64,000 nucleotides of DNA from Bacteroidota bacterium (GTDB lineage: Bacteria; Bacteroidota; Bacteroidia; Bacteroidales; GCA-2748055). Position numbers and translations under genes: made by a program. The notes under the pieces were generated by a model, which did no database searches, was not told the DNA's origin, and worked only from the letters and a program-made list of their open reading frames with translations. Location: contig JAZDPG010000063.1 in NCBI GenBank assembly GCA_043797815.1, forward strand, positions 85,232 through 149,231, in the 5' to 3' direction. Positions 2,647-24,103 of this stretch are shown here, piece after piece (within the stretch, counting starts at the first letter, position 1; the number at the start of each line of letters is the position of its first letter).

Positions 2647-2699
2647 TATCCTTTGATTCAGTTGTATTGTCGTATATTTACGTCATAAAAGATCATGGT

Positions 2700-3032: not shown

Positions 3033-3073
3033 TGATTGAAGGGTTTTTGTAACTTACCTGAAAATTTCCAAAC

Positions 3074-3988
3074 ATGAAGAAGATATTTTATTTACCGGGC
3101 ATATCCCTTCTGATCCTGTTGGCTTGCAACCAGCCAGTGAAGGTGGCAGACCAGAACAAGAAAGATGAATTTACATTTGCTTTTTTAACGGATATTCACC
3201 TGCAGCCTGAACGCTCAGCGGTGGAGGGCTTTCAAAAAGCCATTGACACCATCAACAGGATCAACCCCGATTTTGTGCTGACCGGTGGAGACCTGGTGAT
3301 GGATGCACTGAACCAGACCTATGGAAGAGCAGATTCATTGTACAAATTGTATGAAACAGTAACAAAGGGATTTAATATGCCGGTTTATAATACTGTGGGT
3401 AACCATGAGGTATACGGGTGGCACCGGGATGAAGCCGGACTGGAGGAACACCCCGAGTTTGGCAAAGGGATGTTTGAAAAGAGGTTTGGGAAACGCTATT
3501 ATTCCTTTAACCACAAAGGCTGGCACTTCATCATCCTTGATGCCATCTACCGGAGCGTGGAGGGTCAATATGAAGGAATGATCGATGATGAACAGATCAG
3601 CTGGATCAGGGAGGATCTTCAAAAAACCGGCAAGGAAACACCCATTGTCGTCAGCGTCCATATACCTTTTATTACCTCACAGACCCAGTTAACCCGCGGA
3701 TCGCTCGAGCCCAATTCCAGGGGACTGGTCATTGTTAATTCCCGGGAGGTTCTGCTACATTTCTGGGAATATAATCTGAAACTTGTCCTGCAGGGGCATC
3801 TCCATTTCCTGGAAGACATCAATGTAAACAACCAGGTTCATTTTATTACCGGTGGGGCAGTTTGCGGAAAATGGTGGAATAACAAGCCCGAAGATCCGAT
3901 GGAGGAGGGCTTTCTGTTGGTACACATGAATGGTGAGGAGTTTGATTGGGAGTATGTGGATTACGGATGGACTCCGCCAAATGAGTAA
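3074..3988 (+). CDS. calcineurin-like metallophosphoesterase, lipoprotein
   Basis: 304-aa ORF; lipobox LILLAC; DIHL, GGDLVMD, GNHE, VHIP, GHLH phosphoesterase motifs. Confidence 0.85.
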   Translation: MKKIFYLPGISLLILLACNQPVKVADQNKKDEFTFAFLTDIHLQPERSAVEGFQKAIDTINRINPDFVLTGGDLVMDALNQTYGRADSLYKLYETVTKGFNMPVYNTVGNHEVYGWHRDEAGLEEHPEFGKGMFEKRFGKRYYSFNHKGWHFIILDAIYRSVEGQYEGMIDDEQISWIREDLQKTGKETPIVVSVHIPFITSQTQLTRGSLEPNSRGLVIVNSREVLLHFWEYNLKLVLQGHLHFLEDINVNNQVHFITGGAVCGKWWNNKPEDPMEEGFLLVHMNGEEFDWEYVDYGWTPPNE

Positions 3989-4039
3989 TCCGGCCGTATA
4001 ATTTGGATTTTATTTTATACTTTTATCTTATTATTGGTT

Positions 4040-4240
4040 TCCATATCCCGGCCAAGCCGGGGGAATGAAAAGGGAATGCCGTTAGAATCGGCAACAGTTC
4101 CCGCTGCTGTGAATCCGGGCCCAATCAGGGCTGCATGGCTTTTGGAGAAAACCACTGTTTTGAATCCGCATTCGACGGGTTGAATGGGAAGGTTCCGGAA
4201 GCAAGGACGAGTCAGAAGACCTGCCAGTGATACCCTTGTT
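4040..4240 (+). promoter_or_regulatory. cobalamin (B12) riboswitch
   Basis: AAAGGGAAUGCCGUUAGAAUCGGCAACAGUUCCCGCUGCUGUGAA core at 4068-4113, CCACUG...GGGAAGG at 4152-4192, B12 box GUCAGAAGACCUGCC at 4211-4225; lies in 356-nt gap upstream of a BtuB-containing operon; boundaries approximate. Confidence 0.85.
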
Positions 4241-4344
4241 TTTGCAGCCCGCGGTGAACGGGAAGCTGATCAAAAATCTATCCTTGGTCTTGCCTCACTC
4301 CGCCCGCTGCGACTTTAATAATTGAATATTAAAATCGTAGCAAA

Positions 4345-5859
4345 ATGAAAAAATGGATTACCATCCCAACAGGCCTGTTTATCGGGCTTTCAGTCATGGG
4401 CCAGACCTACCTGACCCACCAGAACGGTTTCAAATCAGCCTTCCTTCCATTCGAGTCCCCGGTGGTTTCCGCTATTGATGTGCACGAAAACCACATCTTC
4501 ATCAGCGACGGGGATACCATCCGGATGATGGATATGAATTCGGGTACCCTGCTGAAGAAATTTGAAAAACCAGAGGACGATACGGTCTCGGCCTACGCCA
4601 GTTTTTTGACTATCTCCTCTGACGGATCATCCATATGGGCCGGATATACCAGTGACTTCAATGTGGAAGACCGTATTTACCAGATTGATACAGAGAGTGG
4701 CGTATGGAACTTAAAGACTGTATTTCCTCAGAACTTCGACCTGGTTTTTTGGAATGACACCATCCTGGTTTCGGGAATCAACACCTCCTCCTGGGAAGAT
4801 CCCAATGGCATTTTCCTGCTTGATACCTCCGGGCAGAACATGCACAGGATGCTTATGGAAACCGGTGGATATTCAGCAGGGCTTGCCATCGATAAAACAG
4901 GAGCAGTATATTATGGCACTTCCTATATGATGAATCCCAATGGACTCTACCGGTGGGACAGCGCCCGGGTGGCCGGGGTGTTAAATCGAGAAGGCCCGGA
5001 CACACTGCATATTGCGGATGCAGAGAAACTTTCTGACCTGCCGGCCGGCGCCTATGATTGTGATGTGGATGTGGCCGGGAACTTGGTGTTGAACATGAAC
5101 CAGTTTGGTGGGAGGAAGGTGGTGGTCCAATGGAACGGAACCACCGGTGAAGGGATCCATCTGGATACCCTGGCCTTCACAGGCGGTGAGTGGGACTGGA
5201 TGGCACTTATCAAAACCGTGGGTGATATTAGCGCGCCTGAGCCTGGAAACAGTATCCTGACTTTTTCGTTCGGACAACCGCTTGTTGATATTCATGCTGC
5301 CGACTACCCTCCTTATGTGGCCAGTCCCATAGAGGATATCTCCTGCCCCTACCACGAACTGCAAGAAATTGATATATCCAGTGTTTTTTCAGATCCGGAT
5401 GACCCGGATTCCCTGATCACCAAAAAACTGCTCTCTCTCAGCAATAATTACCTTTTCGGTGTATCCGTTAACGGGAATTTGATATCCTTCGCCATGCCAA
5501 CTGGCAAGGGTAGCGTGGAAAGCACAGAAACAGATGTTGTGATAGAAGGCGAATCAGCCGGGATTACTGCAACCGACACTTTTCGGGTAACCATCGAAGT
5601 CGTGGGTGGGGTTGAGGATCATGATCAAACCACAACGGAAGTATACCCCAACCCTACCAATGGAATATTTCGAATCAAAGGGGAAATCTTCGAACCTTTT
5701 GATATCAGGATATACACACTCACCGGTGTTTTGGTAAGGGAGTTTCCGGAACGTCTGCCCGAGCAAGTCGTCGACATCTCGGGATTACCAGATGGCATAT
5801 ATCTTCTAAGCGTGGTTTGGAACGGAATGAACAGGAGTATACTGATCCATAAACAATAA
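4345..5859 (+). CDS. exported protein of unknown function with T9SS type A C-terminal sorting domain
   Basis: 504-aa ORF; signal peptide; repetitive beta-rich N-terminal region; C-terminus VYPNPTNGIFRIKG...ISGLPDGIYLLSV matches the Por/T9SS CTD pattern. Confidence 0.7.
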   Translation: MKKWITIPTGLFIGLSVMGQTYLTHQNGFKSAFLPFESPVVSAIDVHENHIFISDGDTIRMMDMNSGTLLKKFEKPEDDTVSAYASFLTISSDGSSIWAGYTSDFNVEDRIYQIDTESGVWNLKTVFPQNFDLVFWNDTILVSGINTSSWEDPNGIFLLDTSGQNMHRMLMETGGYSAGLAIDKTGAVYYGTSYMMNPNGLYRWDSARVAGVLNREGPDTLHIADAEKLSDLPAGAYDCDVDVAGNLVLNMNQFGGRKVVVQWNGTTGEGIHLDTLAFTGGEWDWMALIKTVGDISAPEPGNSILTFSFGQPLVDIHAADYPPYVASPIEDISCPYHELQEIDISSVFSDPDDPDSLITKKLLSLSNNYLFGVSVNGNLISFAMPTGKGSVESTETDVVIEGESAGITATDTFRVTIEVVGGVEDHDQTTTEVYPNPTNGIFRIKGEIFEPFDIRIYTLTGVLVREFPERLPEQVVDISGLPDGIYLLSVVWNGMNRSILIHKQ

Positions 5860-9286: not shown

Positions 9287-10384
9287 ATGTTGCCACGAAT
9301 CATCACCATGGGACTGTTCGTCATGCTTGCCTCCTCCGGGTGCATGAAGGATGATGAGCTCTGGGATTTTGAAAGGGCCCGGTTTCTAAAACCTTATCGT
9401 GGTGTATTTATTATCAATGAGGGTAACTTTACCTATGGAAATGCCTCACTTTCCTATTACGACATGGAAACGGGCGAGGTGTTTAATGACGTGTTTTTCA
9501 ATACCAACGCCCTTCCCATTGGAGATGTGGCCTTTTCCATGACCATTCATGACAGCCTTGGTTATGTGGTAGTCAACAACAGCGGCAGGATTTACATCAT
9601 CAATACCTCCACCTTCGAATATGTGGGAAAGATCAACGGATTCACATCTCCCCGGTACATGCACTTCATTTCAGACACCAAAGCCTATGTGACCGATCTT
9701 TATGCCAGGGCCATTGCTGTGGTGAACCCGGTTACCATGGAAATCAAGGGATCCATCGATGTAAACAACGGCTCATCCCGGTTCTGCCAGCACTCCACCG
9801 AGATGATGGTACAATTTGATAAGTATGTGTATGTCAATTGCTGGAGCTTCGACAACCTGATCCTAGTGATAGACTCCCAGCTTGACCGGGTTATCGATTC
9901 AATCCGGGTGCTCAAACAACCCAACTCCATGGTACTGGATGGTGAGGATAACCTGTGGATTCTCACCGATGGGGGTTTTCCGGAGAGCCCCTATGGCTAC
10001 GAGGCACCGGGCCTGTTGAAGATTGAACCGGGAGCCACCAATGCCGAGATCATGTACCGGTTTAAATGGGGGGAGACTCCATCAGAACTGCGAATAAATG
10101 GTTCAGGAGATACCCTCTACTTTCTGAACAGGCATGTTTACATCCTTCCCACTGGTTCCGGTCGGGACCCCGGTGTATTCATTCCAAGTCCTTACGATGA
10201 ATACTATCCGGGAGGATTCTATGGTCTGGGAGTGGATCAGGCTACCTCATCCGTCTATGTGGCGGATGCACTCGACTTCGTACAACGGGGGATGATCTAC
10301 CGTTTTGCACCTGATGGGATGCCAGTGGACACCTTCAGGGCAGGGATCGCTCCGGGCTCATTCTGTTTCAAGCCTTTCAATTAA
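9287..10384 (+). CDS. surface beta-propeller lipoprotein, BtuG-like (putative corrinoid-binding)
   Basis: 365-aa ORF 4 nt after btuB-like gene; lipobox LASSGC; repeated YVVNNSG / YVTDLYA / YVADALD blade-like motifs (YncE-like propeller); position matches Bacteroides btuB-btuG arrangement. Confidence 0.55.
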   Translation: MLPRIITMGLFVMLASSGCMKDDELWDFERARFLKPYRGVFIINEGNFTYGNASLSYYDMETGEVFNDVFFNTNALPIGDVAFSMTIHDSLGYVVVNNSGRIYIINTSTFEYVGKINGFTSPRYMHFISDTKAYVTDLYARAIAVVNPVTMEIKGSIDVNNGSSRFCQHSTEMMVQFDKYVYVNCWSFDNLILVIDSQLDRVIDSIRVLKQPNSMVLDGEDNLWILTDGGFPESPYGYEAPGLLKIEPGATNAEIMYRFKWGETPSELRINGSGDTLYFLNRHVYILPTGSGRDPGVFIPSPYDEYYPGGFYGLGVDQATSSVYVADALDFVQRGMIYRFAPDGMPVDTFRAGIAPGSFCFKPFN

Positions 10385-10453
10385 ACAGACGATGATGTAT
10401 AATCTCAAAGAAAAATCGTAATTTGTTGTTTGTTTATCATTGAATTTGCATCC

Positions 10454-11197
10454 ATGACAATTCATCAATATCAGAAAAAATGCTCCAAGGAGTACATTGA
10501 GAGCATTAAGTTTCCCAAGGAAAATTCCTATTTATATGGCAATCCGGTAGACGTGGTCATACCCATAGAAACGGCCATTGGTAAAGTTATGGTGATCGGG
10601 CCCCAGCCTGCTGCCAAAGTATACTTTGTGAATGATATCCCGGACGTTCCGCTCTATGATGCTACTGCCCCCTTTTCCATCGAGCCCTACTTTGATGGTT
10701 CCAGGGTAAGAAGTTCATTTACCGGACAGGAACTGTCCGAGGTTATTCTTGAAACGCTGGAAATTCCCAGGGAGCATTGCTGGCTCACCAGCCTGGTTAA
10801 GGTGTTCCTTTTCGATGATGACCATGTGAAAAAGTACCGCAGACTTGGCAAGGAGATCAGGGAAAACAGATCCAAATACATGGAGTATGCCAACAAAAGC
10901 CTGCCCTGGATCCGGCAGGAGATAGAAATTGCAAATCCTTATGCCATCATCCTTCTTGGAGAACAGGTTGTTTCAAGCCTGTTGCTTGTATCTGAAGAGA
11001 AAGCCCGGAGTTATATGACCGGGGAAGTCATCGAAAAGAAGATCATCTGGAAGAACAGCAATTTCATTTGCCTGCCACCTCCGGGTGTCATTCTGGATCG
11101 TTCTGCCAAAAATCCCTGGCCCCGGAAATTTGCCATTCAGATCGGGCCTGTGGCCATGAAAGAACTTGGAAGGCTCAGGTCACAACCCAGTATTTAA
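10454..11197 (+). CDS. hypothetical protein, possibly uracil-DNA-glycosylase-fold superfamily
   Basis: ORF 10430-11197 (TTG), ATG 10454 preferred; VMVIGPQPA and IILLGEQV...ICLPPPG vaguely resemble UDG motifs A/B but catalytic residues are not canonical. Confidence 0.35.
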   Translation: MTIHQYQKKCSKEYIESIKFPKENSYLYGNPVDVVIPIETAIGKVMVIGPQPAAKVYFVNDIPDVPLYDATAPFSIEPYFDGSRVRSSFTGQELSEVILETLEIPREHCWLTSLVKVFLFDDDHVKKYRRLGKEIRENRSKYMEYANKSLPWIRQEIEIANPYAIILLGEQVVSSLLLVSEEKARSYMTGEVIEKKIIWKNSNFICLPPPGVILDRSAKNPWPRKFAIQIGPVAMKELGRLRSQPSI

Positions 11198-13938: not shown

Positions 13939-14988
13939 ATGTCCCAAATAAACGAGAAGCTTATACGGCAGGTTTTTGAGGAGATGGTTAAAAGCAGGCC
14001 CGGTTTATCAAAGTACACAATGGTCGATGAGGATGAGGAGGAAGTAGATTACCGGATCCTGGCCGACCAGATCATAAAAAATTATCCCTGGCCCATCGGG
14101 ATTGAACTGAGAAGGCTATTCTCTGCAAGCATGAGGGAGCTGAATCGCCAGAGACTGGACCAGATCTTTAAAACCATTGAAAGGACCATGCAGTTTGTAT
14201 CCTTCGTGATGCTCTCCCAACTATGGCAAGATATACTTCAGAAGAAGATATCTATTCCTGAAAATGTGGCAAAAGAGTTAGAAAGCAGGTTGATGGTACT
14301 GAGTATGGGGAATTATGCATGGATGATCAGGGCCATTGGAAATCTCTACCAGGAGTCAGAGCATGATTGTTTTATGCCGGAGATGTCTGAACACCTGGAT
14401 AAGAAATTCTTTGCGGCACTGGATTTCTGGGTGCCGGAAAGAAATGAAATCGGTCATTACCAGATCAACCTGAACCAGGAGGAGATTGAGAAGCGCTGCG
14501 TGGAATATGAGGAGAAACTTACCTATATCCTGATCAAGATTGCATTCCTGGCAAAATACAGATTGGTTTCGGTCAGGGAGATCAGGGTGCAAAAACCTAA
14601 AAACAAAGAGGCCCGTTTCCATCATGTGGTGGACCTGCTGAACAGCTCCGATTCGGATTTTACAGCCAGGGAGATCGAAGAGGAGGCATTTTCTGAAAGC
14701 CATTCTGTCCTCCTGATGAAATCCATTAAATCCTTTGACGGATACCTGAATCTATCCCCTCTGATCATAGACACCCATTCGGAAGTATTGGATACCAAGG
14801 AAAAATTCGGAATCAAGAAAGATATTTTTATGTATACCAAATTCAGGGAGGATCACCTGATGTACCTGGGTACAGAAGTCACAGAGAAATGTGATCTGAG
14901 GAAAATGAGCAATTACATCCAGCTGGTTGATGAATTTAAACAGCTCCTTGCTTCCATATCCCCTGCCGAGGCAACTGTTGAGCCTTGA
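13939..14988 (+). CDS. hypothetical protein with HEPN-like RNxxxH motif (island gene A)
   Basis: ORF 13774-14988 trimmed to ATG 13939, because upstream codons only overlap the fucosidase 3-prime end; 349 aa, no signal or TM; helix-rich N-half; PERNEIGH at 14437-14457; 35 nt upstream of NTPase gene B. Confidence 0.6.
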   Translation: MSQINEKLIRQVFEEMVKSRPGLSKYTMVDEDEEEVDYRILADQIIKNYPWPIGIELRRLFSASMRELNRQRLDQIFKTIERTMQFVSFVMLSQLWQDILQKKISIPENVAKELESRLMVLSMGNYAWMIRAIGNLYQESEHDCFMPEMSEHLDKKFFAALDFWVPERNEIGHYQINLNQEEIEKRCVEYEEKLTYILIKIAFLAKYRLVSVREIRVQKPKNKEARFHHVVDLLNSSDSDFTAREIEEEAFSESHSVLLMKSIKSFDGYLNLSPLIIDTHSEVLDTKEKFGIKKDIFMYTKFREDHLMYLGTEVTEKCDLRKMSNYIQLVDEFKQLLASISPAEATVEP

Positions 14989-15023: not shown

Positions 15024-17813
15024 ATGAAATCCCCATTTAAATTCCTGGACGCTTACACCCATGAAGACCGGACCATCTTCTTTGGGCGGGACAGGGAGAT
15101 TGAGGAGTTGTACCAGAAGGTATTCGAAAGCAAGATTCTTCTGGTGTATGGAATTTCCGGAACGGGCAAGTCTTCCTTGATCAATTGTGGTTTGGCCAAC
15201 AAGTTCGAGGAGAGCGACTGGCTGCCCATCAGCATCCGTCGTGGGAAGGACATCAACCAAAGCCTGGAGTCCGAGATTCGCAAGGCATCCATCACTGAGC
15301 TGAAAGATGGCGTTTCCATCAGGAACGCCCTTCAGTCGGTATACCTGGATCATTTCAAACCTGTCTACCTGATCTTTGACCAGTTCGAGGAGTTGTTCAT
15401 CTTTGGAAAACGGCAGGAGAGGGATGATTTCATCCGGACCATTACAGAACTGATCCAATCTGATATCCATTGCAAATGCCTGTTTTCAATCCGGGAAGAG
15501 TACCTGGCGAACATGACCGAGTTTGAACAGGTGATCGATCATATTCTGGACAACCGGATCCGTGTGGAGAAAATGACCAGAGTCCATGCCGTTGATGTGA
15601 TTGAAGGTCCATGCAGGGTGCAGCAAATTGATCTCGAGGAGGGTTTTGCAGCGCGGTTGCTGGAAAAACTAAGCCCTGATTCCAATGAGATCGAGCTCAC
15701 ATTCCTGCAGGTATTCCTTGACCGGATTTTCAGAATGTCAGGCAAGGAAGGAGATGACCTGAAGTTCACCAATGAAATGATCGGAAAGGTTGGTGATGTA
15801 AGCAACCTGCTGGGTGATTTTCTCGAGGAACAGATCAGGGAATTGGAGGATCCGGATGCCGGAATGACCCTTTTGAAGGCTTTTGTATCGGTCAAAGGAA
15901 CAAAACGGCAGGTGGAAGATTCACAGATCCTGGATTCAGTCCGGGCCCTGGGGAAAAACATATCCCCTGAAGAGATCACTGTTCTGGTCCAGAAATTCAT
16001 TAAACTGCGGATTCTGAGAGACAAGGATGAGAATGGCAGGTATGAATTAAGGCACGATAGTCTGGCCGCCAAGATCTACGAGAATATAACGCTTGTTGAA
16101 AAGGAGCTGCTTGAGATCAGGCAATTCATTGAGAATGCCTTCGATGTATGGCAGAAACGCGGTATACTCCTCGATAAAGACGATCTTGATTACATCGCTC
16201 CCTATGAGAAGAAGCTGTTTTTAGAAGAAAAATCACAAGATTTTGTTGAAAAATGTAGAAGAAGCCTGGAGGTAAAAAAGAGATCATTTCGCAGGATCAT
16301 GGCCATCTCGGCAGCTGGATTTCTGCTGATACTTTCGGCCATAGCCATATACTCTTTCAGGTTTTCATTCAGTAGAAAGGCCGACCGGCTGGCCCAAATA
16401 TCTTCACTTCAACGTGAATTCTCCCTGCCTTTGAGTTACTATACGGCCAAAGCCGCTCTTGCGAAAGATCCCAAATCCTCATTTGCTGTAAAAGCGCTGT
16501 TTGATGCTTTTTATGGGTTGCTGGAGGGTGGTCCCTATTATGATTCAGCCGGCCATCTCCTGGATCCGCAAAAAACCATATTTGATTTTTCACCGGTGGG
16601 ATCAGAAATTGAAAATGCCGGTTTTTCGGAAGATGGGTCACTTATCTACGGAACCCTGGAGAACGGAACAGTCAAAATTTGGGACCGGCAGGGACATGAG
16701 TTGTTTTCAAAAGCCGATTCAACAGCTCAGGTTATCGATATGATCATCTCTCCTGACAACCAAACCATCGCCGTGGTATTCCGGGACAGTACTGCCACCT
16801 TCTGGGATCTATCGGGACGCTTTATTACCTCAGTAAGCCTGAGCTACGAACCGGTGAGCCCAAAAGATGCCGTCGCTTTCTCAAGGGATTCCAGAACCTT
16901 TGCCATCACCGGCAGGGAGAACCAGATCGCATTTTACAATGTAACTGGGGACTTTCTCTATGAGATGCATGGTCATTCGGAGGCAGTGACTGGATTGTCC
17001 TTTTCCCCTGATAGTCAGTACCTGGCATCTTCATCCAAAGACTCCTCAATCATGATCTGGAAATTGGATGATGATCTGGGAATGTTTACGGAGTTCAGAC
17101 GATTTGATAAGACATTCGGTGCCAGGGTATGGTCGGTTGATTTTGCACAGAACTCCAGATGGATCCTCTGTACATCAGAAACATTTTTCTATAAAAATGA
17201 AAAAGATACCTTTTGGGTTGTATTTTATGACGTCATAGATGTGGTGAACTTCAATGGATCGAGAAAATTTATTGTTATTGCCCGGACCTCCAGCACGGAG
17301 AAAGATCCCAGGTACCAGTCAAAACTGGTATATGGTGCTCGATTCACAGCCGATGATGCGGCAATTGTCTATCATACCATTGATTCCGTCGGGACGAACA
17401 ATGGTAACGAAATGATCTTATCATTGCCCCGGTACAGGCTGGAGTTTTCAAAAAACAGTCTTCGGTGGATGACCAATACAAACAGGAGCATTAGAAAGGA
17501 TAATATACTTGAAAATACAGATCCATATACTCTGAATGGAGCTGATTTTTCAGTTCAGGGTTTTGTGGCCTCCAGTATCACCAATTCAGCCACCACAAAC
17601 CTGTCACATTACGACGAAATACCGATCCGAAAATTCAAAGGGAACCACCCGGTATTTTCCAATGATGGCAATTATCTGCTCTGTATCAGTGAAAATAAAT
17701 TGTGCCTCTATCCGGCTTCAACAACACTAATTATGGATCTGGTGGATGGAAGAAAAATCTTTGGTGAGATAGAGGGAAACCTGAGTGACTGGCGCCACTA
17801 TGTAACTCAATAG
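15024..17813 (+). CDS. nSTAND-type P-loop NTPase - single TM - WD40 beta-propeller protein (island gene B)
   Basis: 929 aa; FFGRDREIEEL, Walker A GISGTGKS (15150-15173), Walker B YLIFDQFEELF; hydrophobic IMAISAAGFLLILSAIAIYSF (16297-16359) after KKRSFRR; WD40 repeats, e.g. HSEAVTGLSFSPDSQYLASSSKDSSIMIWKL. Confidence 0.85.
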   Translation: MKSPFKFLDAYTHEDRTIFFGRDREIEELYQKVFESKILLVYGISGTGKSSLINCGLANKFEESDWLPISIRRGKDINQSLESEIRKASITELKDGVSIRNALQSVYLDHFKPVYLIFDQFEELFIFGKRQERDDFIRTITELIQSDIHCKCLFSIREEYLANMTEFEQVIDHILDNRIRVEKMTRVHAVDVIEGPCRVQQIDLEEGFAARLLEKLSPDSNEIELTFLQVFLDRIFRMSGKEGDDLKFTNEMIGKVGDVSNLLGDFLEEQIRELEDPDAGMTLLKAFVSVKGTKRQVEDSQILDSVRALGKNISPEEITVLVQKFIKLRILRDKDENGRYELRHDSLAAKIYENITLVEKELLEIRQFIENAFDVWQKRGILLDKDDLDYIAPYEKKLFLEEKSQDFVEKCRRSLEVKKRSFRRIMAISAAGFLLILSAIAIYSFRFSFSRKADRLAQISSLQREFSLPLSYYTAKAALAKDPKSSFAVKALFDAFYGLLEGGPYYDSAGHLLDPQKTIFDFSPVGSEIENAGFSEDGSLIYGTLENGTVKIWDRQGHELFSKADSTAQVIDMIISPDNQTIAVVFRDSTATFWDLSGRFITSVSLSYEPVSPKDAVAFSRDSRTFAITGRENQIAFYNVTGDFLYEMHGHSEAVTGLSFSPDSQYLASSSKDSSIMIWKLDDDLGMFTEFRRFDKTFGARVWSVDFAQNSRWILCTSETFFYKNEKDTFWVVFYDVIDVVNFNGSRKFIVIARTSSTEKDPRYQSKLVYGARFTADDAAIVYHTIDSVGTNNGNEMILSLPRYRLEFSKNSLRWMTNTNRSIRKDNILENTDPYTLNGADFSVQGFVASSITNSATTNLSHYDEIPIRKFKGNHPVFSNDGNYLLCISENKLCLYPASTTLIMDLVDGRKIFGEIEGNLSDWRHYVTQ
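15033..16224 (+). repeat. diverged direct duplication, copy 1 (NTPase module of gene B)
   Basis: About 1.2 kb alignable to 18873-20055. By eye, roughly two thirds of the amino acids are identical and DNA identity is about three quarters in the first 250 nt. Confidence 0.75.
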
Positions 17814-17820
17814 TCTGTTT

Positions 17821-18729
17821 TTATTTTAGCTTTCTGATATTGTATTCCTCCATCTGAAAGTGTGTTTCTGCTCCTGAATGACCCTTAAAAAAGATCTTTT
17901 TATAGGTGTCAGGTGGAAGAACAAACCTCATGGACATCATTGTAAAGAGGAACAGGGTGGGCAGGATGATGATCCTTATAAAATGTTTTTTTTGCATGAC
18001 CGGCCATTCCAGGTAATTTGAAAAAGGCATGGCTATCAGCAGGGAAAGGGCAGCTATTAAAAAAGCAACAATGACGATCAGATCGAATACCCCCAAAGTT
18101 TTCACTGTAAAACTTAGGTTTTGAAAAAACAGCGTTGTGGTGCATACACAAAGCAATAGACATAAAAGAAAGAAAAGTCTCTTCAAAAACAGTTGTTTCC
18201 GGAAATGAAAAAGTGATATGATTGCCTCTTTCAGAATACAGGCAGATAATAAAAAATAACCCATAAAAATCATATACATTGCTTCCGAATCAGCACCCAT
18301 CCGGTTCAGGACAAGGCCTGTGATAATTGCCGGAATAAGCCAGGAAATGATATGGGAGGTTTTGTCATGGTAGATGAACAGAAGCAATAAAACGATTCCC
18401 ACCACAAAAATTTCCCCGATCTCTTCAATGGTCCTTTTCAAGTCATTTAAGAAATCGGTTCTTGGTAATCGTATATAGGTGATAAACCAAAATATGATTC
18501 CTATACCATACAGGATAAAAAGCAGCGCCTTAAATCTTGAGGGGATCGAGGACGGCTTGATGATCAGCAAAACACCTAGAGCCAAAGCGATGGCAAAGGA
18601 TGTGATCCCCAGTACTGTTGATACTATATATGTATTGGTAAACCATGAGTGGGCATCTGCAACTATGGTGCCCAGAACGGCAGATATCAGCAGGATCCAT
18701 CTCCAGCGGTTGAGTTTATCCACTTGCAT
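17821..18729 (-). CDS. polytopic membrane protein of unknown function (island gene C)
   Basis: 302-aa ORF, about 8 hydrophobic segments, very AT-rich (hand count 33-47 percent GC per 60-nt line); convergent with B (7-nt gap), divergent from D. Confidence 0.65.
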   Translation of the reverse strand: MQVDKLNRWRWILLISAVLGTIVADAHSWFTNTYIVSTVLGITSFAIALALGVLLIIKPSSIPSRFKALLFILYGIGIIFWFITYIRLPRTDFLNDLKRTIEEIGEIFVVGIVLLLLFIYHDKTSHIISWLIPAIITGLVLNRMGADSEAMYMIFMGYFLLSACILKEAIISLFHFRKQLFLKRLFFLLCLLLCVCTTTLFFQNLSFTVKTLGVFDLIVIVAFLIAALSLLIAMPFSNYLEWPVMQKKHFIRIIILPTLFLFTMMSMRFVLPPDTYKKIFFKGHSGAETHFQMEEYNIRKLK

Positions 18730-18854
18730 ATTCCGGTGATTGAATAGTCAAATTACGACTTTACCAAAGAATTCGCAAGTGATCACCTTGCGGTTCTTTA
18801 CAGATATCTGTTTTTTTAATAACTTATCAATTAATATAATGCTATACAGGTACC

Positions 18855-21800
18855 ATGGCAACTGCTTTCAGTCCGTTTAAATTCCTGGATGCTTACACTC
18901 GTGAAGACAGGGAGATCTTCTTTGGGCGGGACCGTGAGATTGAGGACATATACCAGAAAGTATTTGAGAGCAAGATTCTGCTGGTATATGGGATTTCGGG
19001 AACAGGGAAGACTTCATTGATCAATTGCGGACTGGCCAATAAATTTGCTGAGAGTGACTGGTTGCCCATCAATATACGAAGAGGAAAAGACATTAATGAG
19101 AGCCTGATTTCGGAGATTAAAAAAGCCTCCATTACCGATTTGAAAAAGGGCCTGACCATTCTCAACACGATCCAGTCTGTATACCTGGACCATTTCAAAC
19201 CCATCTACCTCATTTTTGACCAGTTTGAAGAGTTATTCATTTTCGGGGAGCGGCAGGAAAGGGATGTTTTCATGCATACCATTGGCGAAATCGTGAAATC
19301 TGATCTTCAATGCAAATGCTTGTTTTCGATCCGGGAGGAATACCTGGCAGGAGTCACAGAATTCGAAAGTTCCATACCTGATTTTCTGGCCAACCGGATA
19401 CGAATTGAAAAAATGACACATCAGAATGCCAGAGAGGTGATCGAAGGTCCATGTGAAGTGAATGGAATCAAAGTCGGAGATGGATTTACAGATTCCTTAC
19501 TGCATAAACTGAATCCCAATTCCAACGAAATTGAGCTGACCTACCTGCAAGTTTTCCTGGATAAGATCTTCAAACTGTCAGGAGATCACAAAGAGTTTTC
19601 CCGGGCGCAGATAGAACAGGTAGGTGATGTGAGTGATCTGCTTGGGAGTTTCCTGGAAGAACAGATTGGAGAACTTGAAGATCCCGACACAGGCCTGGTT
19701 GTACTGAAGGCTTTTGTATCCACGCAGGGAACTAAAAAACAGATCGGCGAAGAAGAGATTCGTGATTTTGCAAATACGCTGGGCAAACCCCTGGAAAGCA
19801 AAAAGGTTACAGACCTGTTGGTACGGTTTGTGAATCTCCGGGTGTTGAAGGATAAAGATGATCACAACCAGTATGAGTTGAGGCATGACAGCCTTGCGGT
19901 TAAGATATATGAAAAAATCACTCTGGTTGAAAAGGAATTGCTTGAAATAAAGGACTTTCTGGACAATTCATTCAACAATTTTGAGCGCAGGGGCATTTAT
20001 CTGAATGAAGCGGACCTGAAATATATCGCTCCTTATGAGGACAAACTTTTTCTAAGCAAGAAGCTTCAGAGCCTTATTTCTGTAAGCAAAGGTGCCCTTG
20101 TGAAGGCTCAAAGAAGAAAAAGGAGGTTGATCGCTGTTGTGGCCATATGCATGATCGCTGTTTTGTCCTTTTTTACTGGTTGGGCCATACTGGAAAGGGG
20201 AAACGCAATTGATCAATCAAAACTGGCAGAAGCGCAGAGACAGGAAGCCATCGAAGCCGGGTTAGATGCTGAAAAATCTCGTGAAATCGCTGAAGAGAAC
20301 GAAAAAATAGCATTGCTCTCTAAAAAAGAAGCTGAGGAATCCAAAGAAGAAGCAATCCATGCCAGGGATATTGCGACTAAGGAATTGTATGAGAATATAA
20401 GATCCTCATTCACGATCTCCACAATAGCAATGAATGTCCTGTACAGAGGCCTTAATAATCCTATAAGTATCTCGGCATCAGGAATCAAAAAAGAGAATCT
20501 ATTGGTTTCAATTGATAATGGTAGCATCGATTTCGATGAAACGAAAAATAATGGGTATGCAAGACCAGGCGGTTCCCGGAAGGCCACAATCTCCTTAAGT
20601 GGAATTACAAATTTTGGGGATACCCTATATTTGGGGGCAATGGATTTCAGGGTATTAGACCTTCCGAAACCCACAGCAAGTATTGCAGGCCTGAAAGGTG
20701 GGGCAATATCTATGTCAGACCTGATTAATGCCAAGGGAGTTGATGCTGCTGCTGATGATTTTCTGTTTGAGGTTGACTTTGTTGTAACAGAATTCTCATT
20801 GGTAATTGTCTATGGGGGTATTTATTCTTCCCGGTTTTCGGATAGTAACAGGTTTACCCAGGAACAGATACAAATGTTAAGGTTATTTCGTCCAGGCCAA
20901 AAGCTAACAATTGATGATATAAAAGCCATTGGACCAGATGGCAGACTGCGTACATTGAATTCCATCACCTTTGAAATACTTGATTTGTCTGAACCAGAGA
21001 TCCAGGCACTAATAGAAGATCCCGAAGCAATTACAAATATTGAACAATTGATAGCAGTATTACAAAAGTTGGAAAATGAGGAGCGTTGGAGAAGATACTC
21101 AGAAATTGTATCCGATCATTATAAAATCCTGGAGAATGATTTTGAATCGCTGAATAGTGCCCTATGGAATATGTACCTGCATGGAGACAGATATTTCTTA
21201 TTCAGAGCACAGGAGGCAGCAATTGACCTGGTTCAAAAAAGTAATCGTAAACCGGACTACATTCATACCCTGGCAGCCTTAACCTATAAACTCGGGGAGA
21301 TAGAAAAAGCACTGGAACTGGAGAAGGAAGCCATAGTATTGGCTGATGAGAAAGGAGGAGATACTGAGCATTTTCAGACGCTTGTTGTTGAGATGAGTGA
21401 TCCTGAAAACCCGCAGAACTATTTATTTAGAGGTCTGAGAATGGAACGGGAGCCGGGATTAGACGAACAGGCAATGGAAATGTACAGGAAGGCAGTTATT
21501 ATTGATCCAGAGTATGCACCCGGGTGGTATCAACTGGGTAGTATGCATGATCGATTCAGTAATGATGAGGGATTCAGCAGGGACTCGGCCATGTACTTTT
21601 ACGCAAAAGCAATTGAATCTGATCCGGGATTTGAAGATGCGGTTATTTCCATGGTATACAAATATGATAGAAGCCAAACTGATGAGAAGATTGATTTATT
21701 GAATGGTTTTCTTGAAGTGGAGCCGTCGAGTAAAAGTGGATGGCGTTTAATACATCCGCTATATATTGAGGCACAAGAGCTGGAAAAATCATTGGATGCT

Positions 21801-22139
21801 GCCCGCAATTATCTGGAACTGGATTCAGTAAATGTATTTGGCTATACAATGCTCAGTGAATCATACATTTATCTTCAGGACTATGAAGCGTCCATTCATT
21901 CTGCCCGAAAGGGTTTAAGCCTGGGTACTGAAAATGGCAATGCAGAAGCATTTCTTGTAATCGCCTATGCTTTGAATGGAGAATTTGCAAAAAGCGACGC
22001 GATCATTCGGCTCAAAAAGTTTGACATTCAATCCAAACAACGACTCAGCATGAATTTAATTGAAATACTGGATGAATTGGAAAACAATCAAATCACCCAC
22101 CCCGATTTTGAGAAAATCCGTACGTTAATAAATGAATAA
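18855..22139 (+). CDS. nSTAND-type P-loop NTPase - single TM - coiled coil - GldM/PorM-like domain - TPR protein (island gene D)
   Basis: 1094 aa; same NTPase module as B (GISGTGKT, YLIFDQFEELF); TM LIAVVAICMIAVLSFFTGWAIL (20127-20192) after KAQRRKRR; E/K-rich coiled coil; NVLYRGLNNPISISASG...FRVLDLPKPTASI...IKAIGPDGRLRTL (about 20400-20985); TPR-like C-terminus. Confidence 0.85.
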   Translation: MATAFSPFKFLDAYTREDREIFFGRDREIEDIYQKVFESKILLVYGISGTGKTSLINCGLANKFAESDWLPINIRRGKDINESLISEIKKASITDLKKGLTILNTIQSVYLDHFKPIYLIFDQFEELFIFGERQERDVFMHTIGEIVKSDLQCKCLFSIREEYLAGVTEFESSIPDFLANRIRIEKMTHQNAREVIEGPCEVNGIKVGDGFTDSLLHKLNPNSNEIELTYLQVFLDKIFKLSGDHKEFSRAQIEQVGDVSDLLGSFLEEQIGELEDPDTGLVVLKAFVSTQGTKKQIGEEEIRDFANTLGKPLESKKVTDLLVRFVNLRVLKDKDDHNQYELRHDSLAVKIYEKITLVEKELLEIKDFLDNSFNNFERRGIYLNEADLKYIAPYEDKLFLSKKLQSLISVSKGALVKAQRRKRRLIAVVAICMIAVLSFFTGWAILERGNAIDQSKLAEAQRQEAIEAGLDAEKSREIAEENEKIALLSKKEAEESKEEAIHARDIATKELYENIRSSFTISTIAMNVLYRGLNNPISISASGIKKENLLVSIDNGSIDFDETKNNGYARPGGSRKATISLSGITNFGDTLYLGAMDFRVLDLPKPTASIAGLKGGAISMSDLINAKGVDAAADDFLFEVDFVVTEFSLVIVYGGIYSSRFSDSNRFTQEQIQMLRLFRPGQKLTIDDIKAIGPDGRLRTLNSITFEILDLSEPEIQALIEDPEAITNIEQLIAVLQKLENEERWRRYSEIVSDHYKILENDFESLNSALWNMYLHGDRYFLFRAQEAAIDLVQKSNRKPDYIHTLAALTYKLGEIEKALELEKEAIVLADEKGGDTEHFQTLVVEMSDPENPQNYLFRGLRMEREPGLDEQAMEMYRKAVIIDPEYAPGWYQLGSMHDRFSNDEGFSRDSAMYFYAKAIESDPGFEDAVISMVYKYDRSQTDEKIDLLNGFLEVEPSSKSGWRLIHPLYIEAQELEKSLDAARNYLELDSVNVFGYTMLSESYIYLQDYEASIHSARKGLSLGTENGNAEAFLVIAYALNGEFAKSDAIIRLKKFDIQSKQRLSMNLIEILDELENNQITHPDFEKIRTLINE
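18873..20055 (+). repeat. diverged direct duplication, copy 2 (NTPase module of gene D)
   Basis: Alignable to 15033-16224; similarity stops shortly before the TM segments, and the C-terminal regions are unrelated. Confidence 0.75.
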
Positions 22140-22148
22140 ATACCGGAT

Positions 22149-22211
22149 ATGAAATCTCCATTCAAAATGTTTGATTCATGCCCCAGGGTTGCCAGGAAGA
22201 TAATACTATGA
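22149..22211 (+). other. 20-codon mini-ORF, relic of an nSTAND NTPase 5-prime end; possible coupling uORF for the phosphatase gene
   Basis: atgaaatctccattcaaaatgtttgat (MKSPFKMFD) versus gene B start atgaaatccccatttaaattcctggac (MKSPFKFLD); stop TGA overlaps ATG 22208 as ATGA. Confidence 0.5.
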
Positions 22212-24103
22212 ATTCAGAGAATAATAGAACAGTCGCTCCAGGAAAATCAGGAGAGGATCCATTGATTGACATTGATTCACTGAATGAGGAATCGTGGAGT
22301 TTGAGGTATAAGGACCAGGTGGCATCGGAGACCAAAGCCATGACAGCTTTGAGCATGGCCCGGGAAATCAATTATTTCAGAGGGCAGGCTTATGCTTGCC
22401 TGAATCTGGCGGCTGGCCATTTCCTGAAATCTTCTAATAAGGATGCCCTTGAGTTGCTGGCTGATGCTCTCGGTTATTTCAATTCCCATACTGATGAACC
22501 GGGTTACGCTGCGGTCCTCAATTACACAGGCAACATTTATGAAAGTTTTGGAGATTATGAGACAGCCCTGGATTACTGTCTAAGAGCCTACAATACTGCT
22601 GTTCAAATCGGGAACAATGAGATGGTGGGGGAGGTGCAGAGCGTGCTTGGACTGATCTACAGCCGCATGTCGGATTATGACCGGGCGCTGAAGGCACATA
22701 AGGAGAGTCTGCGGATCAGGGAGGAGAAGGGGGACCAGATGGCTGCGGCTTCTTCCCTGAACCGGATCGCCAGGATCCATACCCTGACCAGGGAGTACGA
22801 TAAAGCACTGGAGTATTATAACAGGAGCCTGTCCATCAGGGAGAAGTTGGGGCAGAAAGGATTGCTGGCCTGGACTTACCTTGGATTGGCAAGTACGTAC
22901 GAAGCGATGGAAATGTATGAAGAAGCTAGAGATTATTATAGGAAAATGTTGAAAGGAGAACACCAATGCCTGGACGACCGTTGCAGGATGCAGGCCACTC
23001 TTGGACTGGGAAGAACCCTGCATAAGCTGAACCTTGAAGAAGAGGCTTTAAGTTGCTTTGAAAACTCCCTGGCACTTGCCATACAGCTGGAAGCAAAACC
23101 GCTGCAGGTGGAATCTCATTCTGCCCTGGCTGATTTTTATGAATCTTCAGGTCAGTTCGAAAAAGCCCTTTACCATTATAAGGCATACAGGAGTACCCGG
23201 GAAGCTGTCATGGATGATGAGACCCGCAACCGGTTGAAAAACCAACAGATCGCTTTTGCAGTTGAGAAGAGTGAAAAGGAAAAGGAGATTTTCCAGCTTC
23301 GAAATGTGGAGTTGAAATCGGCGTATGATGAGATCCACCACAAGAACAAAGAGATCACCGACAGCATCAATTACGCCAGCCGGATCCAGGGGGCCCTGTT
23401 GCCGCAGAATGCAAACCTGAAAGGGATGTTCCCGGATCACTTCATTATCTTCCTTCCAAAGGATATGGTGAGCGGAGATTTCTATTGGGCTACAGAGGTT
23501 GGAAAGCAAATGGTTTTTGCTGCGGCAGATTGCACAGGGCATGGCGTACCTGGCGCGCTCATGAGTATGCTGGGAATATCGTTTCTAAATGAGGTGGTGA
23601 TAGAACGCGGACAAACCAATCCAGGTGAGATTCTGGATAACCTCAGGGATGAGGTAATCAAAGCTCTGAAGCAAAGCGGTAAGGCAGATGAGCAGAAAGA
23701 TGGGATGGACATAGCTCTTTGCACCTACGATTCGGAATCAGGGGTTATCAAATTTGCTGGAGCATATAATCCCTTGTACCTTGTCAGGGAAGGATCTCTG
23801 GAAGAGTATAAAGCCGATAGAATGCCCATCAGTTATTACCATGGGGTTCAGGATTCATTTAAGACTACCTCAATCAAGGTACAAAAAGGGGACGCGCTTT
23901 ATCTGTTCTCGGACGGATTCGCTGACCAATTCGGAGGTCCACACCGGAAGAAATTCAAATACAAACCCCTGAAAGAGTTGCTGGAACTTATCCATGAAAA
24001 ATCCATGCAGAAACAGAAACTTGTCCTCTACGAGAAGTTTCTCGACTGGAAAGGGGTATACGACCAGATCGACGATGTGGTGATGATCGGGATCAGAATC
24101 TGA
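22208..24103 (+). CDS. TPR-repeat protein with C-terminal PP2C/SpoIIE-family serine phosphatase domain (island gene E)
   Basis: ORF 22178-24103; ATG 22208 preferred (ATGA overlap with mini-ORF); TPR repeats, coiled coil, then SGDFYW...AADCTGHGVPGALMSM...DGMDIAL...SDGFADQ phosphatase motifs. Confidence 0.85.
   Translation: MNSENNRTVAPGKSGEDPLIDIDSLNEESWSLRYKDQVASETKAMTALSMAREINYFRGQAYACLNLAAGHFLKSSNKDALELLADALGYFNSHTDEPGYAAVLNYTGNIYESFGDYETALDYCLRAYNTAVQIGNNEMVGEVQSVLGLIYSRMSDYDRALKAHKESLRIREEKGDQMAAASSLNRIARIHTLTREYDKALEYYNRSLSIREKLGQKGLLAWTYLGLASTYEAMEMYEEARDYYRKMLKGEHQCLDDRCRMQATLGLGRTLHKLNLEEEALSCFENSLALAIQLEAKPLQVESHSALADFYESSGQFEKALYHYKAYRSTREAVMDDETRNRLKNQQIAFAVEKSEKEKEIFQLRNVELKSAYDEIHHKNKEITDSINYASRIQGALLPQNANLKGMFPDHFIIFLPKDMVSGDFYWATEVGKQMVFAAADCTGHGVPGALMSMLGISFLNEVVIERGQTNPGEILDNLRDEVIKALKQSGKADEQKDGMDIALCTYDSESGVIKFAGAYNPLYLVREGSLEEYKADRMPISYYHGVQDSFKTTSIKVQKGDALYLFSDGFADQFGGPHRKKFKYKPLKELLELIHEKSMQKQKLVLYEKFLDWKGVYDQIDDVVMIGIRI

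What the first reader, a model, noticed from the sequence alone, without database searches (positions are those of the whole stretch)
15024..17813. Gene B: STAND NTPase wired through a single TM helix to a WD40 propeller
Seen: residues 1 to about 410 form the NTPase plus helical module. KKRSFRR is then followed by the 21-aa hydrophobic IMAISAAGFLLILSAIAIYSF. At least four clear WD40 blades follow (16600-17200), and then more degenerate, very AT-rich blade-like sequence runs to the stop. WD40-STAND proteins are normally soluble. With one TM and a cytoplasmic NTPase, the propeller must be extracytoplasmic. That implies ligand sensing outside the cytoplasm. Basic residues also follow the TM (RFSFSRK), so topology rests mainly on the NTPase needing cytoplasmic NTP.
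Basis: partly seen in the sequence, partly recalled or inferred. Interest (0 to 1): 0.6.

Follow-up and report, generated by a model that had tools for sequence, protein, structure and literature searches.

The report
Membrane-spanning STAND ATPase with periplasmic propeller
Gene B encodes an Apaf-1-like ATP switch that almost certainly crosses the inner membrane once, with its ATPase in the cytoplasm and its WD40 propeller in the periplasm. This layout is normal for its protein family and is already listed in a published supplement, but the conserved partner genes around it are not described.

Summary
ORF 15024-17813 (929 aa) has these parts:
- nSTAND1 NTPase, residues 4-379
- basic cluster KKRSFRR
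- one 21-residue hydrophobic helix, residues 425-445
- two stalk helices
- a roughly 7-bladed WD40 propeller, residues 529-897

The N-in/C-out reading is supported by comparison, not by experiment:
- 142 of 146 family representatives carry the helix at the same place, and the exceptions are mostly truncated.
- The TM count is always odd (1, or 3 in two cases).
- K/R residues are more numerous on the NTPase side in 140 of 142 proteins, and never fewer.
- After the helix, relatives carry GldM D1, GldM D3-D4, or GldM_4th plus WD40 in one chain. GldM domains are known to be periplasmic.

The layout is not new. The supplement of Kaur et al. 2021 lists 'nSTAND1+TM+BetaPropeller' 278 times. Periplasmic WD40 arrays have been predicted for planctomycete kinases, and periplasmic sensing for TM-bearing NACHT proteins. 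This scan has also noted kin proteins in at least 59 other genomes.

What appears undescribed is the gene set around it:
- a very conserved upstream partner A with an invariant RNxxGH motif
- a convergent orphan 9-helix membrane protein C
- often a TPR-PP2C phosphatase

The most likely function is a trans-envelope, ligand-gated oligomerising switch. Its input and output are unknown.

The parts
15024..17813 (+). Gene B, 929 aa: nSTAND1 NTPase - TM - stalk - WD40 propeller
   Evidence: ORF and translation; Pfam; AF2 model with pLDDT 81; top Foldseek hits are Apaf-1 and the apoptosome
15033..16160 (+). nSTAND1 NTPase module (res 4-379), predicted cytoplasmic. Walker A is GISGTGKSS at res 42-50. 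Walker B region is LIFDQFEE at res 116-123.
   Evidence: PF20703 E 4e-43; motif residues invariant or >=90% conserved in 56 homologues; the best-conserved part of the protein, mean 61.5% identity
16275..16295 (+). Basic cluster KKRSFRR (res 418-424) on the cytoplasmic side of the helix
   Evidence: Sequence; 5-10 K/R in the 15 residues before the helix in all relatives
16296..16358 (+). Predicted transmembrane helix IMAISAAGFLLILSAIAIYSF (res 425-445)
   Evidence: KD 2.33; lies inside a continuous AF2 helix 402-463; position conserved in 142 of 146 representatives
16425..16526 (+). Two-helix juxtamembrane stalk (res 468-501), predicted periplasmic
   Evidence: AF2 secondary structure, pLDDT 87-95
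16608..17714 (+). WD40 beta-propeller of about 7 blades (res 529-897), predicted periplasmic
   Evidence: Pfam WD40 and propeller families; about 30 AF2 strands; 7-bladed WD40 structures match at TM-score 0.6-0.7 normalised to the target
17184..17621 (+). Hypervariable part of the propeller (res 721-866, blades 5-6 with inserts)
   Evidence: Mean identity 17% here, against 36% for blades 1-4 and 61.5% for the NTPase; low pLDDT at 757-766, 789-799 and 827-832
17721..17807 (+). Conserved C-terminal helices (res 900-928)
   Evidence: AF2; E902, L906, F913 and G914 are >=90% conserved
13939..14988 (+). Gene A, 349 aa: conserved soluble partner ending 35 nt upstream of B, with invariant W-x-P-E-R-N-x-x-G-H
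   Evidence: 1078 homologues, >=67% identity over the best 120; invariant motif; directly upstream of an nSTAND1 gene in 4 of 4 loci fetched through A and in L001 and L006; no Pfam, PHROG, PADLOC or PDB match
17821..18729 (-). Gene C, 302 aa: orphan polytopic membrane protein, tail-to-tail with B across a 7-nt gap
   Evidence: Homologue convergent with an nSTAND1-TM-WD40 gene in L001, L003, three pairs on one JGI contig, and 4 of 4 loci found through C; AF2 gives 9 long helices at pLDDT 71, with no PDB fold match at E<=0.001
18855..22139 (+). Gene D, 1094 aa: paralogue with the same NTPase-TM cassette (64% identity over the first 440 residues), then coiled coil, GldM_3rd + GldM_4th, and TPR
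   Evidence: Pfam; own-genome search
22178..24103 (+). Gene E: TPR + SpoIIE/PP2C phosphatase, a frequent neighbour of the cluster
   Evidence: Pfam; also present next to A-B(-C) in L001, L006, L012 and two JGI contigs with different flanks

Best explanation
Gene B is a single-pass inner-membrane protein with its N-terminus in the cytoplasm and its C-terminus outside.

**Shown or strongly indicated**
- An intact nSTAND1 NTPase (res 1-400) sits in the cytoplasm.
- One long helix (402-463) crosses the membrane at res 425-445.
- A short helical stalk and a 7-bladed WD40 propeller sit in the periplasm.

**Inferred mechanism**
- The propeller, whose blades 5-6 are the fastest-evolving part of the protein, binds a periplasmic or envelope ligand.
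- Binding clusters or releases the protomers, so that the cytoplasmic STAND modules exchange nucleotide and oligomerise at the membrane, as Apaf-1 and NLR proteins do in solution.
- B has no effector domain of its own, so the signal must be passed in trans.
- The best output candidates are the very conserved upstream protein A (invariant RNxxGH, HEPN-like), the convergent orphan membrane protein C, and possibly the neighbouring TPR-PP2C phosphatase.
- B is one of three such receptors in this genome. They share the NTPase-TM cassette and carry different outer domains.
For: **Architecture**
- establish the domain layout.
- Top fold matches are full-length Apaf-1 and the apoptosome.

**Topology**
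- The helix is conserved in place in 120 of 120 homologues and 142 of 146 representatives.
- 24 of 28 wider Bacteroidota nSTAND1 proteins also have it.
- TM counts after the NTPase are 1, or 3 in P0148 and P0149, and never 2.
- K/R before the helix exceeds K/R after it in 140 of 142 proteins, with no case reversed.
- Domains after the helix include GldM_1st, GldM_3rd/4th, and GldM_4th + WD40 in one chain.
- GldM is periplasmic (PMC7463736).
- The third paralogue in this genome is followed by genes for an outer-membrane beta-barrel protein and a lipoprotein.

**Sensor-like evolution**
- Mean identity is 61.5% in the NTPase, 36% in blades 1-4 and 17% in blades 5-6.
- The outer domains are swapped as cassettes.

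**Partners**
- A is adjacent in 4 of 4 loci fetched through A, and in L001 and L006.
- C is convergent in every locus checked.

**Precedent**
- Single-pass kinases with predicted periplasmic WD40 arrays are reported (PMC11032199).
- TM-bearing NACHT proteins are predicted to sense periplasmic signals.
Against: - No topology program or reporter fusion was run. The topology rests on hydropathy, charge bias and domain logic.
- Four basic residues also follow the helix.
- My unweighted sum of recalled Hessa insertion energies is only about -0.9 kcal/mol, which is favourable but not strongly so.
- The published table also lists 'nSTAND1+TM+GUN4'. That outer domain would normally be expected inside the cell, so 'TM' does not always imply an outside sensor.
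- The ligand, the output and any contact of B with A, C or E are unknown.
- A's RNxxGH is only a motif: no HEPN profile matched.
- How a single helix would gate a STAND module is not established for any protein.
Confidence: 0.6

Rival explanations
1. Same topology, opposite direction of work. The NTPase would be an inside-out switch or assembly factor that positions or remodels a periplasmic scaffold. That scaffold might be tied to the T9SS/gliding machinery or to outer-membrane partners. On this view B is not a receptor that reports inward.
For: - Paralogue D and about 24 relatives carry GldM D3-D4, the tip of the T9SS/gliding stalk, and P0148 carries GldM D1.
- The third paralogue lies in an operon with an outer-membrane barrel and a lipoprotein.
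- Neighbours are housekeeping genes, not defence genes.
- A is under strong purifying selection.
Against: - STAND NTPases are known as signal-gated oligomerisation switches, not as mechanical motors.
- The family is patchy: 3 of 400 sampled Bacteroidota genomes match this subfamily at E<=1e-30.
- It is often multi-copy in tandem.
- Its propeller is hypervariable, which is not what a fixed structural part would show.
Confidence: 0.17
2. An anti-phage or conflict system of the Avs/NLR type. The periplasmic propeller would detect an invader component at the envelope. The STAND oligomer would then activate A as a HEPN RNase, or C as a membrane-damaging effector, to abort infection.
For: - nSTAND1 was defined in predicted counter-invader systems (PMC8195603).
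- A has an invariant Rx4H-type motif.
- The genes occur in tandem arrays with swapped, fast-evolving sensor ends.
- Distribution is patchy.
Against: - No PADLOC model matches A, B or C beyond P-loop or repeat noise.
- The NCBIfam Avs4 model scores 15.5 bits against a cut-off of 1500.
- No known defence genes were seen in about 10 neighbourhoods.
- The locus is syntenic with UDG, TldD/PmbA or purL, not with mobile islands.
- A is >=67% identical across hundreds of clusters, unusually conserved for an immune effector.
Confidence: 0.15
3. The hydrophobic stretch does not span the membrane. It could be a peripheral anchor, a re-entrant segment, or a helix buried in an oligomer. The whole protein, propeller included, would then be cytoplasmic, like classical STAND-WD40 proteins.
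For: - Classical Apaf-1-type STAND-WD40 proteins are soluble.
- Basic residues lie on both sides of the helix.
- 427 'nSTAND1+BetaPropeller' strings without TM, and a 'TM+GUN4' form, exist in the published table.
Against: - 19-21 uncharged residues with KD 2.0-3.0 are conserved in hydrophobicity but not in sequence.
- Only odd TM counts occur.
- One-sided charge bias holds in 140 of 142 proteins.
- Fusions to GldM domains, which are only known in the periplasm, follow the helix.
- AF2 draws a straight 62-residue helix, not a hairpin.
Confidence: 0.07

Closest known systems
nSTAND1 clade of STAND NTPases (Pfam PF20703; Kaur, Iyer, Burroughs, Aravind 2021, PMC8195603), architecture 'nSTAND1+TM+BetaPropeller' in its Figure 2 source data
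   Same: The HMM match is far above the cut-off. The order NTPase - TM - beta-propeller is the same. Relatives have the same swaps to TPR or FGS after the TM.
   Different: - The published cases are mostly cyanobacterial, chloroflexal or actinobacterial proteins with an N-terminal effector or adaptor (caspase, TIR, kinase, EAD).
- B has none and starts at the NTPase.
- I found no discussion of nSTAND1 topology in that paper's main text.
- GldM fusions (0 occurrences) and the A/C partners are not listed there.
Apaf-1 / apoptosome (PDB 3SFZ, 5JUY)
   Same: These are the best whole-chain fold matches (E about 5e-22). They share a STAND NTPase followed by a WD40 propeller that acts as the ligand sensor and gates NTP-dependent oligomerisation.
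   Different: Apaf-1 is soluble, has an N-terminal CARD and two propellers, and shares about 12% identity. B has a membrane helix between the switch and the sensor, and no effector domain.
Single-pass Ser/Thr kinases with predicted periplasmic WD40 or TPR arrays in Planctomycetota (PMC11032199)
   Same: Both have a cytoplasmic ATP-using domain, one TM helix, and C-terminal WD40, TPR or FGE-sulfatase domains predicted to be periplasmic. The same argument from the lack of periplasmic ATP applies.
   Different: The cytoplasmic module is a kinase, not a STAND NTPase, and the lineage is unrelated. Their topology is also only predicted.
TM-bearing bacterial NACHT proteins (Kibby et al. 2022 preprint) and DGR-diversified NACHT-TM-CLec targets (Dore et al. 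2024, PMC10907252)
   Same: These are STAND NTPases with TM segments, proposed to sense intramembrane or periplasmic signals.
   Different: They belong to a different STAND clade (NACHT), often have several TM segments, and carry different sensor domains. None has a WD40 propeller behind a single helix together with the A/C partners.
GldM/PorM of the T9SS/gliding motor
   Same: The topology is the same type: one TM helix followed by periplasmic domains. Paralogue D and relatives borrow GldM D1 or D3-D4.
   Different: B itself has no GldM domain. GldM has only a short cytoplasmic N-terminus and works with GldL.

Membership tests
nSTAND1 (PF20703) STAND NTPase | Profile match above Pfam's gathering score over the full NTPase-helical module | tested here: met
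   148.9 bits against a cut-off of 27.1, res 4-379 on profile positions 1-374 of 379
nSTAND1 (PF20703) STAND NTPase | Intact P-loop (Walker A GxxxxGK[ST]) and Walker B acidic residues | tested here: met
   GISGTGKSS and LIFDQFEE; G43, G46, G48, K49, D119, E122 and E123 are invariant or >=90% conserved in 56 homologues
nSTAND1 (PF20703) STAND NTPase | NTP-dependent oligomerisation | not testable with these tools
   Needs purified protein. Only the fold likeness to Apaf-1 is available.
nSTAND1+TM+BetaPropeller architecture (Kaur et al. 2021 supplement) | One TM segment between the NTPase and a C-terminal beta-propeller | tested here: met
   TM at res 425-445 and propeller at 529-897; the string occurs 278 times in the supplement
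WD40 beta-propeller (PF00400) | WD40 repeat match above cut-off and a closed propeller fold | tested here: met
   74.5 bits against a cut-off of 27; about 7 blades in the AF2 model; 7-bladed WD40 structures match at TM-score 0.6-0.7 normalised to the target
Bitopic N-in/C-out inner-membrane protein | One hydrophobic span of about 20 residues with positive-inside charge bias | tested here: met
   KD 2.33; 8 K/R before and 4 after; across the family 7.2 before and 3.2 after, with the upstream count greater in 140 of 142
Bitopic N-in/C-out inner-membrane protein | Experimentally shown location of the C-terminal domain | not testable with these tools
   No reporter fusion and no DeepTMHMM or TOPCONS were available. 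The only indirect support is the GldM fusions in relatives.
Avs / AVAST anti-phage STAND systems | Match to an Avs family model, or a defence effector domain, or a defence-island context | tested here: not met
   NCBIfam Avs4 scores 15.5 bits against a cut-off of 1500; PADLOC gives only repeat or P-loop noise; there is no N-terminal effector; neighbours are housekeeping genes
HEPN RNase (for partner gene A) | Rx4-6H motif within an all-helical HEPN fold | tested here: inconclusive

The most novel reading that the evidence does not exclude
A-B-C, often with the TPR-PP2C phosphatase, would be an undescribed trans-envelope signalling system of uncultured Bacteroidales. An NLR/Apaf-1-type switch would work as a true transmembrane receptor. 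A ligand caught by the periplasmic propeller would drive STAND oligomerisation on the cytoplasmic face. That would switch on the conserved RNxxGH partner A, with membrane protein C as co-receptor or effector. Interchangeable outer domains (WD40, GldM tip, TPR, FGE-sulfatase) would give each paralogue a different input.
Probability: 0.3. Interest if true: 0.75.

Novelty: new member of a known kind. Interest (0 to 1): 0.4.

Why it matters
All experimentally studied STAND/NLR switches (Apaf-1, plant and animal NLRs, bacterial Avs and bNACHT) sense ligands in the same compartment as their NTPase. A large bacterial family that puts the sensor across a membrane would show that this switch can also work as a transmembrane receptor. 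It would also offer a simple system for asking how a single helix couples ligand binding to oligomerisation.

The family is large: 1103 clusters at 50% identity match at E<=1e-30. It has conserved, unannotated partners. One topology experiment and one knockout in a tractable relative would therefore annotate thousands of 'WD40 repeat protein' entries.

For this gene alone the gain is modest, because the layout is already catalogued and its topology has been guessed for related STAND clades.

Tried and rejected
1. A sequence search of the NTPase module against PDB gave only one weak hit (2fna, E 0.015), so no solved close relative exists.
2. PADLOC, PHROGs and NCBIfam gave nothing specific for A, B or C. 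I therefore did not file the locus as a defence system.
3. Gene C was folded with 9 homologues (pLDDT 71) and had no PDB fold match at E<=0.001. It remains an orphan.
4. The profile search for C in the 5.8-billion protein set found only 5 proteins, because hydrophobic words saturated the candidate list. The genome-contig scan found 4 loci. Linkage of C is thus based on about 10 loci, not hundreds.
5. Single-linkage BLAST clustering of the post-TM regions chained everything into one cluster and was replaced by region-specific queries. 40 of 140 regions stayed unassigned by BLAST. A sample of them were divergent WD40, TPR or FGE-sulfatase by Pfam.
6. The promoter and terminator scans were no better than shuffles and were not used.
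7. I considered N-out/C-in topology and rejected it. There is no signal peptide, the NTPase needs cytoplasmic NTP, and the charge bias points the other way.
8. The sum of Hessa insertion energies uses values recalled from memory, without position weighting. It is only a rough check.
Full report
**1. The observation**

The ORF at 15024-17813 (+) is real and intact at 929 aa.
- Pfam places an nSTAND1 NTPase at res 4-379 (148.9 bits, cut-off 27.1).
- WD40 and propeller families match res 517-750.
- The Kyte-Doolittle 19-mer maximum is 2.33, with 8 K/R in the 15 residues before the stretch and 4 after.

An AlphaFold2 model built on 56 homologues has mean pLDDT 81. It shows these elements:
- the NTPase and helical module
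- one unbroken helix 402-463 that contains the hydrophobic stretch
- two stalk helices (468-501)
- about 30 strands from 529 to 897, or about 7 blades
- two C-terminal helices

The 'degenerate' tail is therefore the rest of a single propeller, with long variable inserts. GC falls to 0.39-0.42 in the last 600 nt, from 0.43-0.50 earlier. The tail is AT-richer, though only moderately. The best whole-chain fold matches are Apaf-1 and the apoptosome.

**2. Is the helix a conserved feature?**

Yes.
- All 120 best homologues (40-69% identity, mostly Bacteroidota MAGs) have one hydrophobic 19-mer at the equivalent place.
- An exhaustive HMMER search with res 1-459 finds 1103 clusters (50% identity) at E<=1e-30.
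- Of the best 146 representatives, 142 have the helix.
- Of the other four, two are truncated before it, one scores 1.59 (just under my threshold), and one seems to lack it.
- The helix is conserved in hydrophobicity, not in sequence: the TM and juxtamembrane region averages 35% identity against 61.5% for the NTPase.
- Wider nSTAND1 proteins drawn from 400 Bacteroidota genomes include many only about 27% identical to B. 24 of the 28 parsed have one such helix after the NTPase.
- This genome has three nSTAND1 proteins and all three have it.

**3. Topology**

No topology predictor or reporter assay was available, so I used four independent comparative arguments.
- (a) **Charge bias.** The mean is 7.2 K/R in the 15 residues before the helix and 3.2 after. 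The upstream count is greater in 140 of 142 proteins, equal in 2, and never smaller.
- (b) **Parity.** The number of hydrophobic helices after the NTPase is 1, or 3 in P0148 and P0149, and never 2. The NTPase and the C-terminal domain are therefore always on opposite sides.
- (c) **Domain logic.** The same NTPase-TM cassette is followed in relatives by domains of GldM.
  - GldM has one TM helix and a periplasmic region D1-D4 (PMC7463736).
  - Window gene D has GldM_3rd + GldM_4th.
  - About 24 representatives match that region.
  - P0148 has three TM helices followed by GldM_1st.
  - P0226 has GldM_3rd + 4th.
  - P0221 has GldM_4th followed by WD40 repeats in the same chain.
- (d) **Context.** The third paralogue has the order nSTAND1 - TM - S/T/P/Q-rich linker - WD40. 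It is followed on the same strand by genes for an outer-membrane beta-barrel protein and a lipoprotein.

The NTPase also needs cytoplasmic NTP. Together these make N-in/C-out the reading to beat, and I put it at about 0.8.

Three caveats remain:
- Four basic residues follow the helix.
- A rough sum of recalled insertion energies is only about -0.9 kcal/mol.
- The published table also contains 'nSTAND1+TM+GUN4', where an outside location is less obvious.

**4. Surroundings**

B has no effector or adaptor domain, because the nSTAND1 profile starts at residue 4. Two neighbours are conserved with it.

*Gene A (13939-14988, 35 nt upstream, same strand)*
- It belongs to a family of 1078 detected proteins of uniform length. 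The best 120 are >=67% identical.
- W-x-P-E-R-N-x-x-G-H is invariant.
- In 4 of 4 loci fetched through A homologues, an nSTAND1 gene follows directly, with gaps of -4 to 114 nt and unrelated flanks. The same holds in L001 and L006.
- A is 80% identical between the window and L001, where B is 57%, C 47% and E 66%. A is thus a constant partner of a variable receptor.
- No profile or PDB sequence matches A, so 'HEPN-like' remains a motif-level lead.

*Gene C (17821-18729, minus strand, tail-to-tail with B across 7 nt)*
- It is an orphan membrane protein.
- Homologues lie convergent with an nSTAND1-TM-WD40 gene in L001 and L003.
- Three such pairs lie in a row on one JGI contig.
- All 4 loci found through C show the same arrangement.
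- Its model has 9 long helices and no PDB fold match.

A TPR-SpoIIE (PP2C) phosphatase gene lies just downstream in the window, L001, L006, L012 and two JGI contigs.

No known defence gene was seen in these neighbourhoods. PADLOC and the Avs models do not match. This subfamily is patchy: 3 of 400 other sampled Bacteroidota genomes match at E<=1e-30. nSTAND1 as a whole is present in 36 of 401 genomes, counting this genome.

**5. Mechanism**

*Shown:*
- an intact P-loop module
- a conserved membrane helix
- a propeller whose blades 5-6 are hypervariable (17% mean identity)
- cassette-like exchange of the outer domain

*Inferred:*
- The propeller binds something in the periplasm.
- Binding promotes oligomerisation of the cytoplasmic STAND modules at the membrane.
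- The output goes through trans partners: A, C, and perhaps the PP2C phosphatase.

The rivals are an inside-out scaffold role linked to envelope machinery, an Avs-like abortive-infection role, and a non-spanning helix. The report sections give evidence and odds for each.

**6. Comparison with what is known**

- nSTAND1 was named by Kaur et al. 2021.
- I found no discussion of nSTAND1 topology in its main text.
- Its Figure 2 source data lists 'nSTAND1+TM+BetaPropeller' 278 times, '+TM+TPR' 22 times and '+TM+FGS' 4 times. Most rows I read (one part of the table) carry N-terminal caspase, kinase or EAD domains and come from cyanobacteria or chloroflexi. GldM is not listed.
- Periplasmic WD40 arrays behind one TM helix are predicted for planctomycete kinases.
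- Periplasmic sensing is proposed for TM-bearing NACHT proteins.

B is a new member of a catalogued architecture. I did not find three things described:
- any test of the topology
- the GldM-domain variants
- the A-B-C(-E) gene set

Earlier notes of this scan report kin proteins in at least 59 other genomes. One of them pointed me to the supplement, which I then checked myself.

**7. Verdict**

| Question | Result |
|---|---|
| Observation | confirmed |
| Topological reading | supported by comparative evidence, untested experimentally |
| 'Unusual' claim | not supported |
| Novelty | new member of a known kind |
| Interest | 0.4 |

The interest score rests on the untested idea of an NLR-like switch working across a membrane, and on the undescribed conserved partners.

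Noticed in passing
window 17821-18729 (-): Gene C's most conserved stretches are LVLNRxG, MPFSN[YF]xEW, RF[VL]LPxxTY and a C-terminal HFxM[ED][ED]YE tail. With 9 predicted helices and a basic N-terminus, the tail would lie in the periplasm. There it could be a peptide ligand for the propeller of B. This is pure speculation.
   Followed up: partly
L005:5299-8397 (own genome, contig C124), with L005:8413-9585 and 9599-10822: The third nSTAND1 paralogue has the order NTPase - TM - about 150 aa of S/T/P/Q-rich linker - WD40. It is followed by genes for a signal-peptide protein with an OMP beta-barrel domain and for a lipoprotein. Upstream (2129-5251) lies a gene for a 1040-aa multi-TM + HEAT protein.
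   Followed up: partly
window 13939-14988 (+): Gene A is far more conserved than its neighbours: 80% identity to L001, against 57% for B and 47% for C. It has an invariant PERNxxGH and a second invariant block, PWPIGxELRRLFS, near the N-terminus. No family model matches it.
   Followed up: partly
P0148, P0149 (representatives): These variants have three TM helices after the NTPase. P0148 is then followed by GldM_1st, the domain that in GldM itself sits directly on the membrane.
   Followed up: partly
P0221 (1119 aa): One chain has the order nSTAND1 - TM - coiled coil - GldM_4th - WD40. It joins the two kinds of outer domain seen separately in window genes B and D.
   Followed up: yes
window 17200-22400: GC is 0.38-0.45 across the 3' end of B and across C and D, against 0.47-0.54 in the flanking fucosidase and phosphatase genes.
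   Followed up: no
JGI contig of P0020 and L010: Arrays of three tandem nSTAND1-TM-WD40 genes occur. In the JGI contig each is followed by its own convergent 240-300-aa gene, and an IS200-type Y1 transposase gene sits between the A-like gene and the array.
   Followed up: no
L011 (CP070687.1): Here the A - nSTAND1 pair is preceded by a TPR + HATPase_c protein in place of the TPR-SpoIIE phosphatase. The nSTAND1 gene call is only 674 aa, while its homologue P0047 is annotated 'partial' at 919 aa, so the gene may be broken or miscalled.
   Followed up: no
Supplement of PMC8195603, file 1 part 101: The architecture 'CASPASE+nSTAND1+TM+GUN4' is listed for cyanobacteria. A porphyrin-sensing domain behind the TM segment is a caution against reading every nSTAND1 'TM' as proof of an outside sensor.
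   Followed up: no
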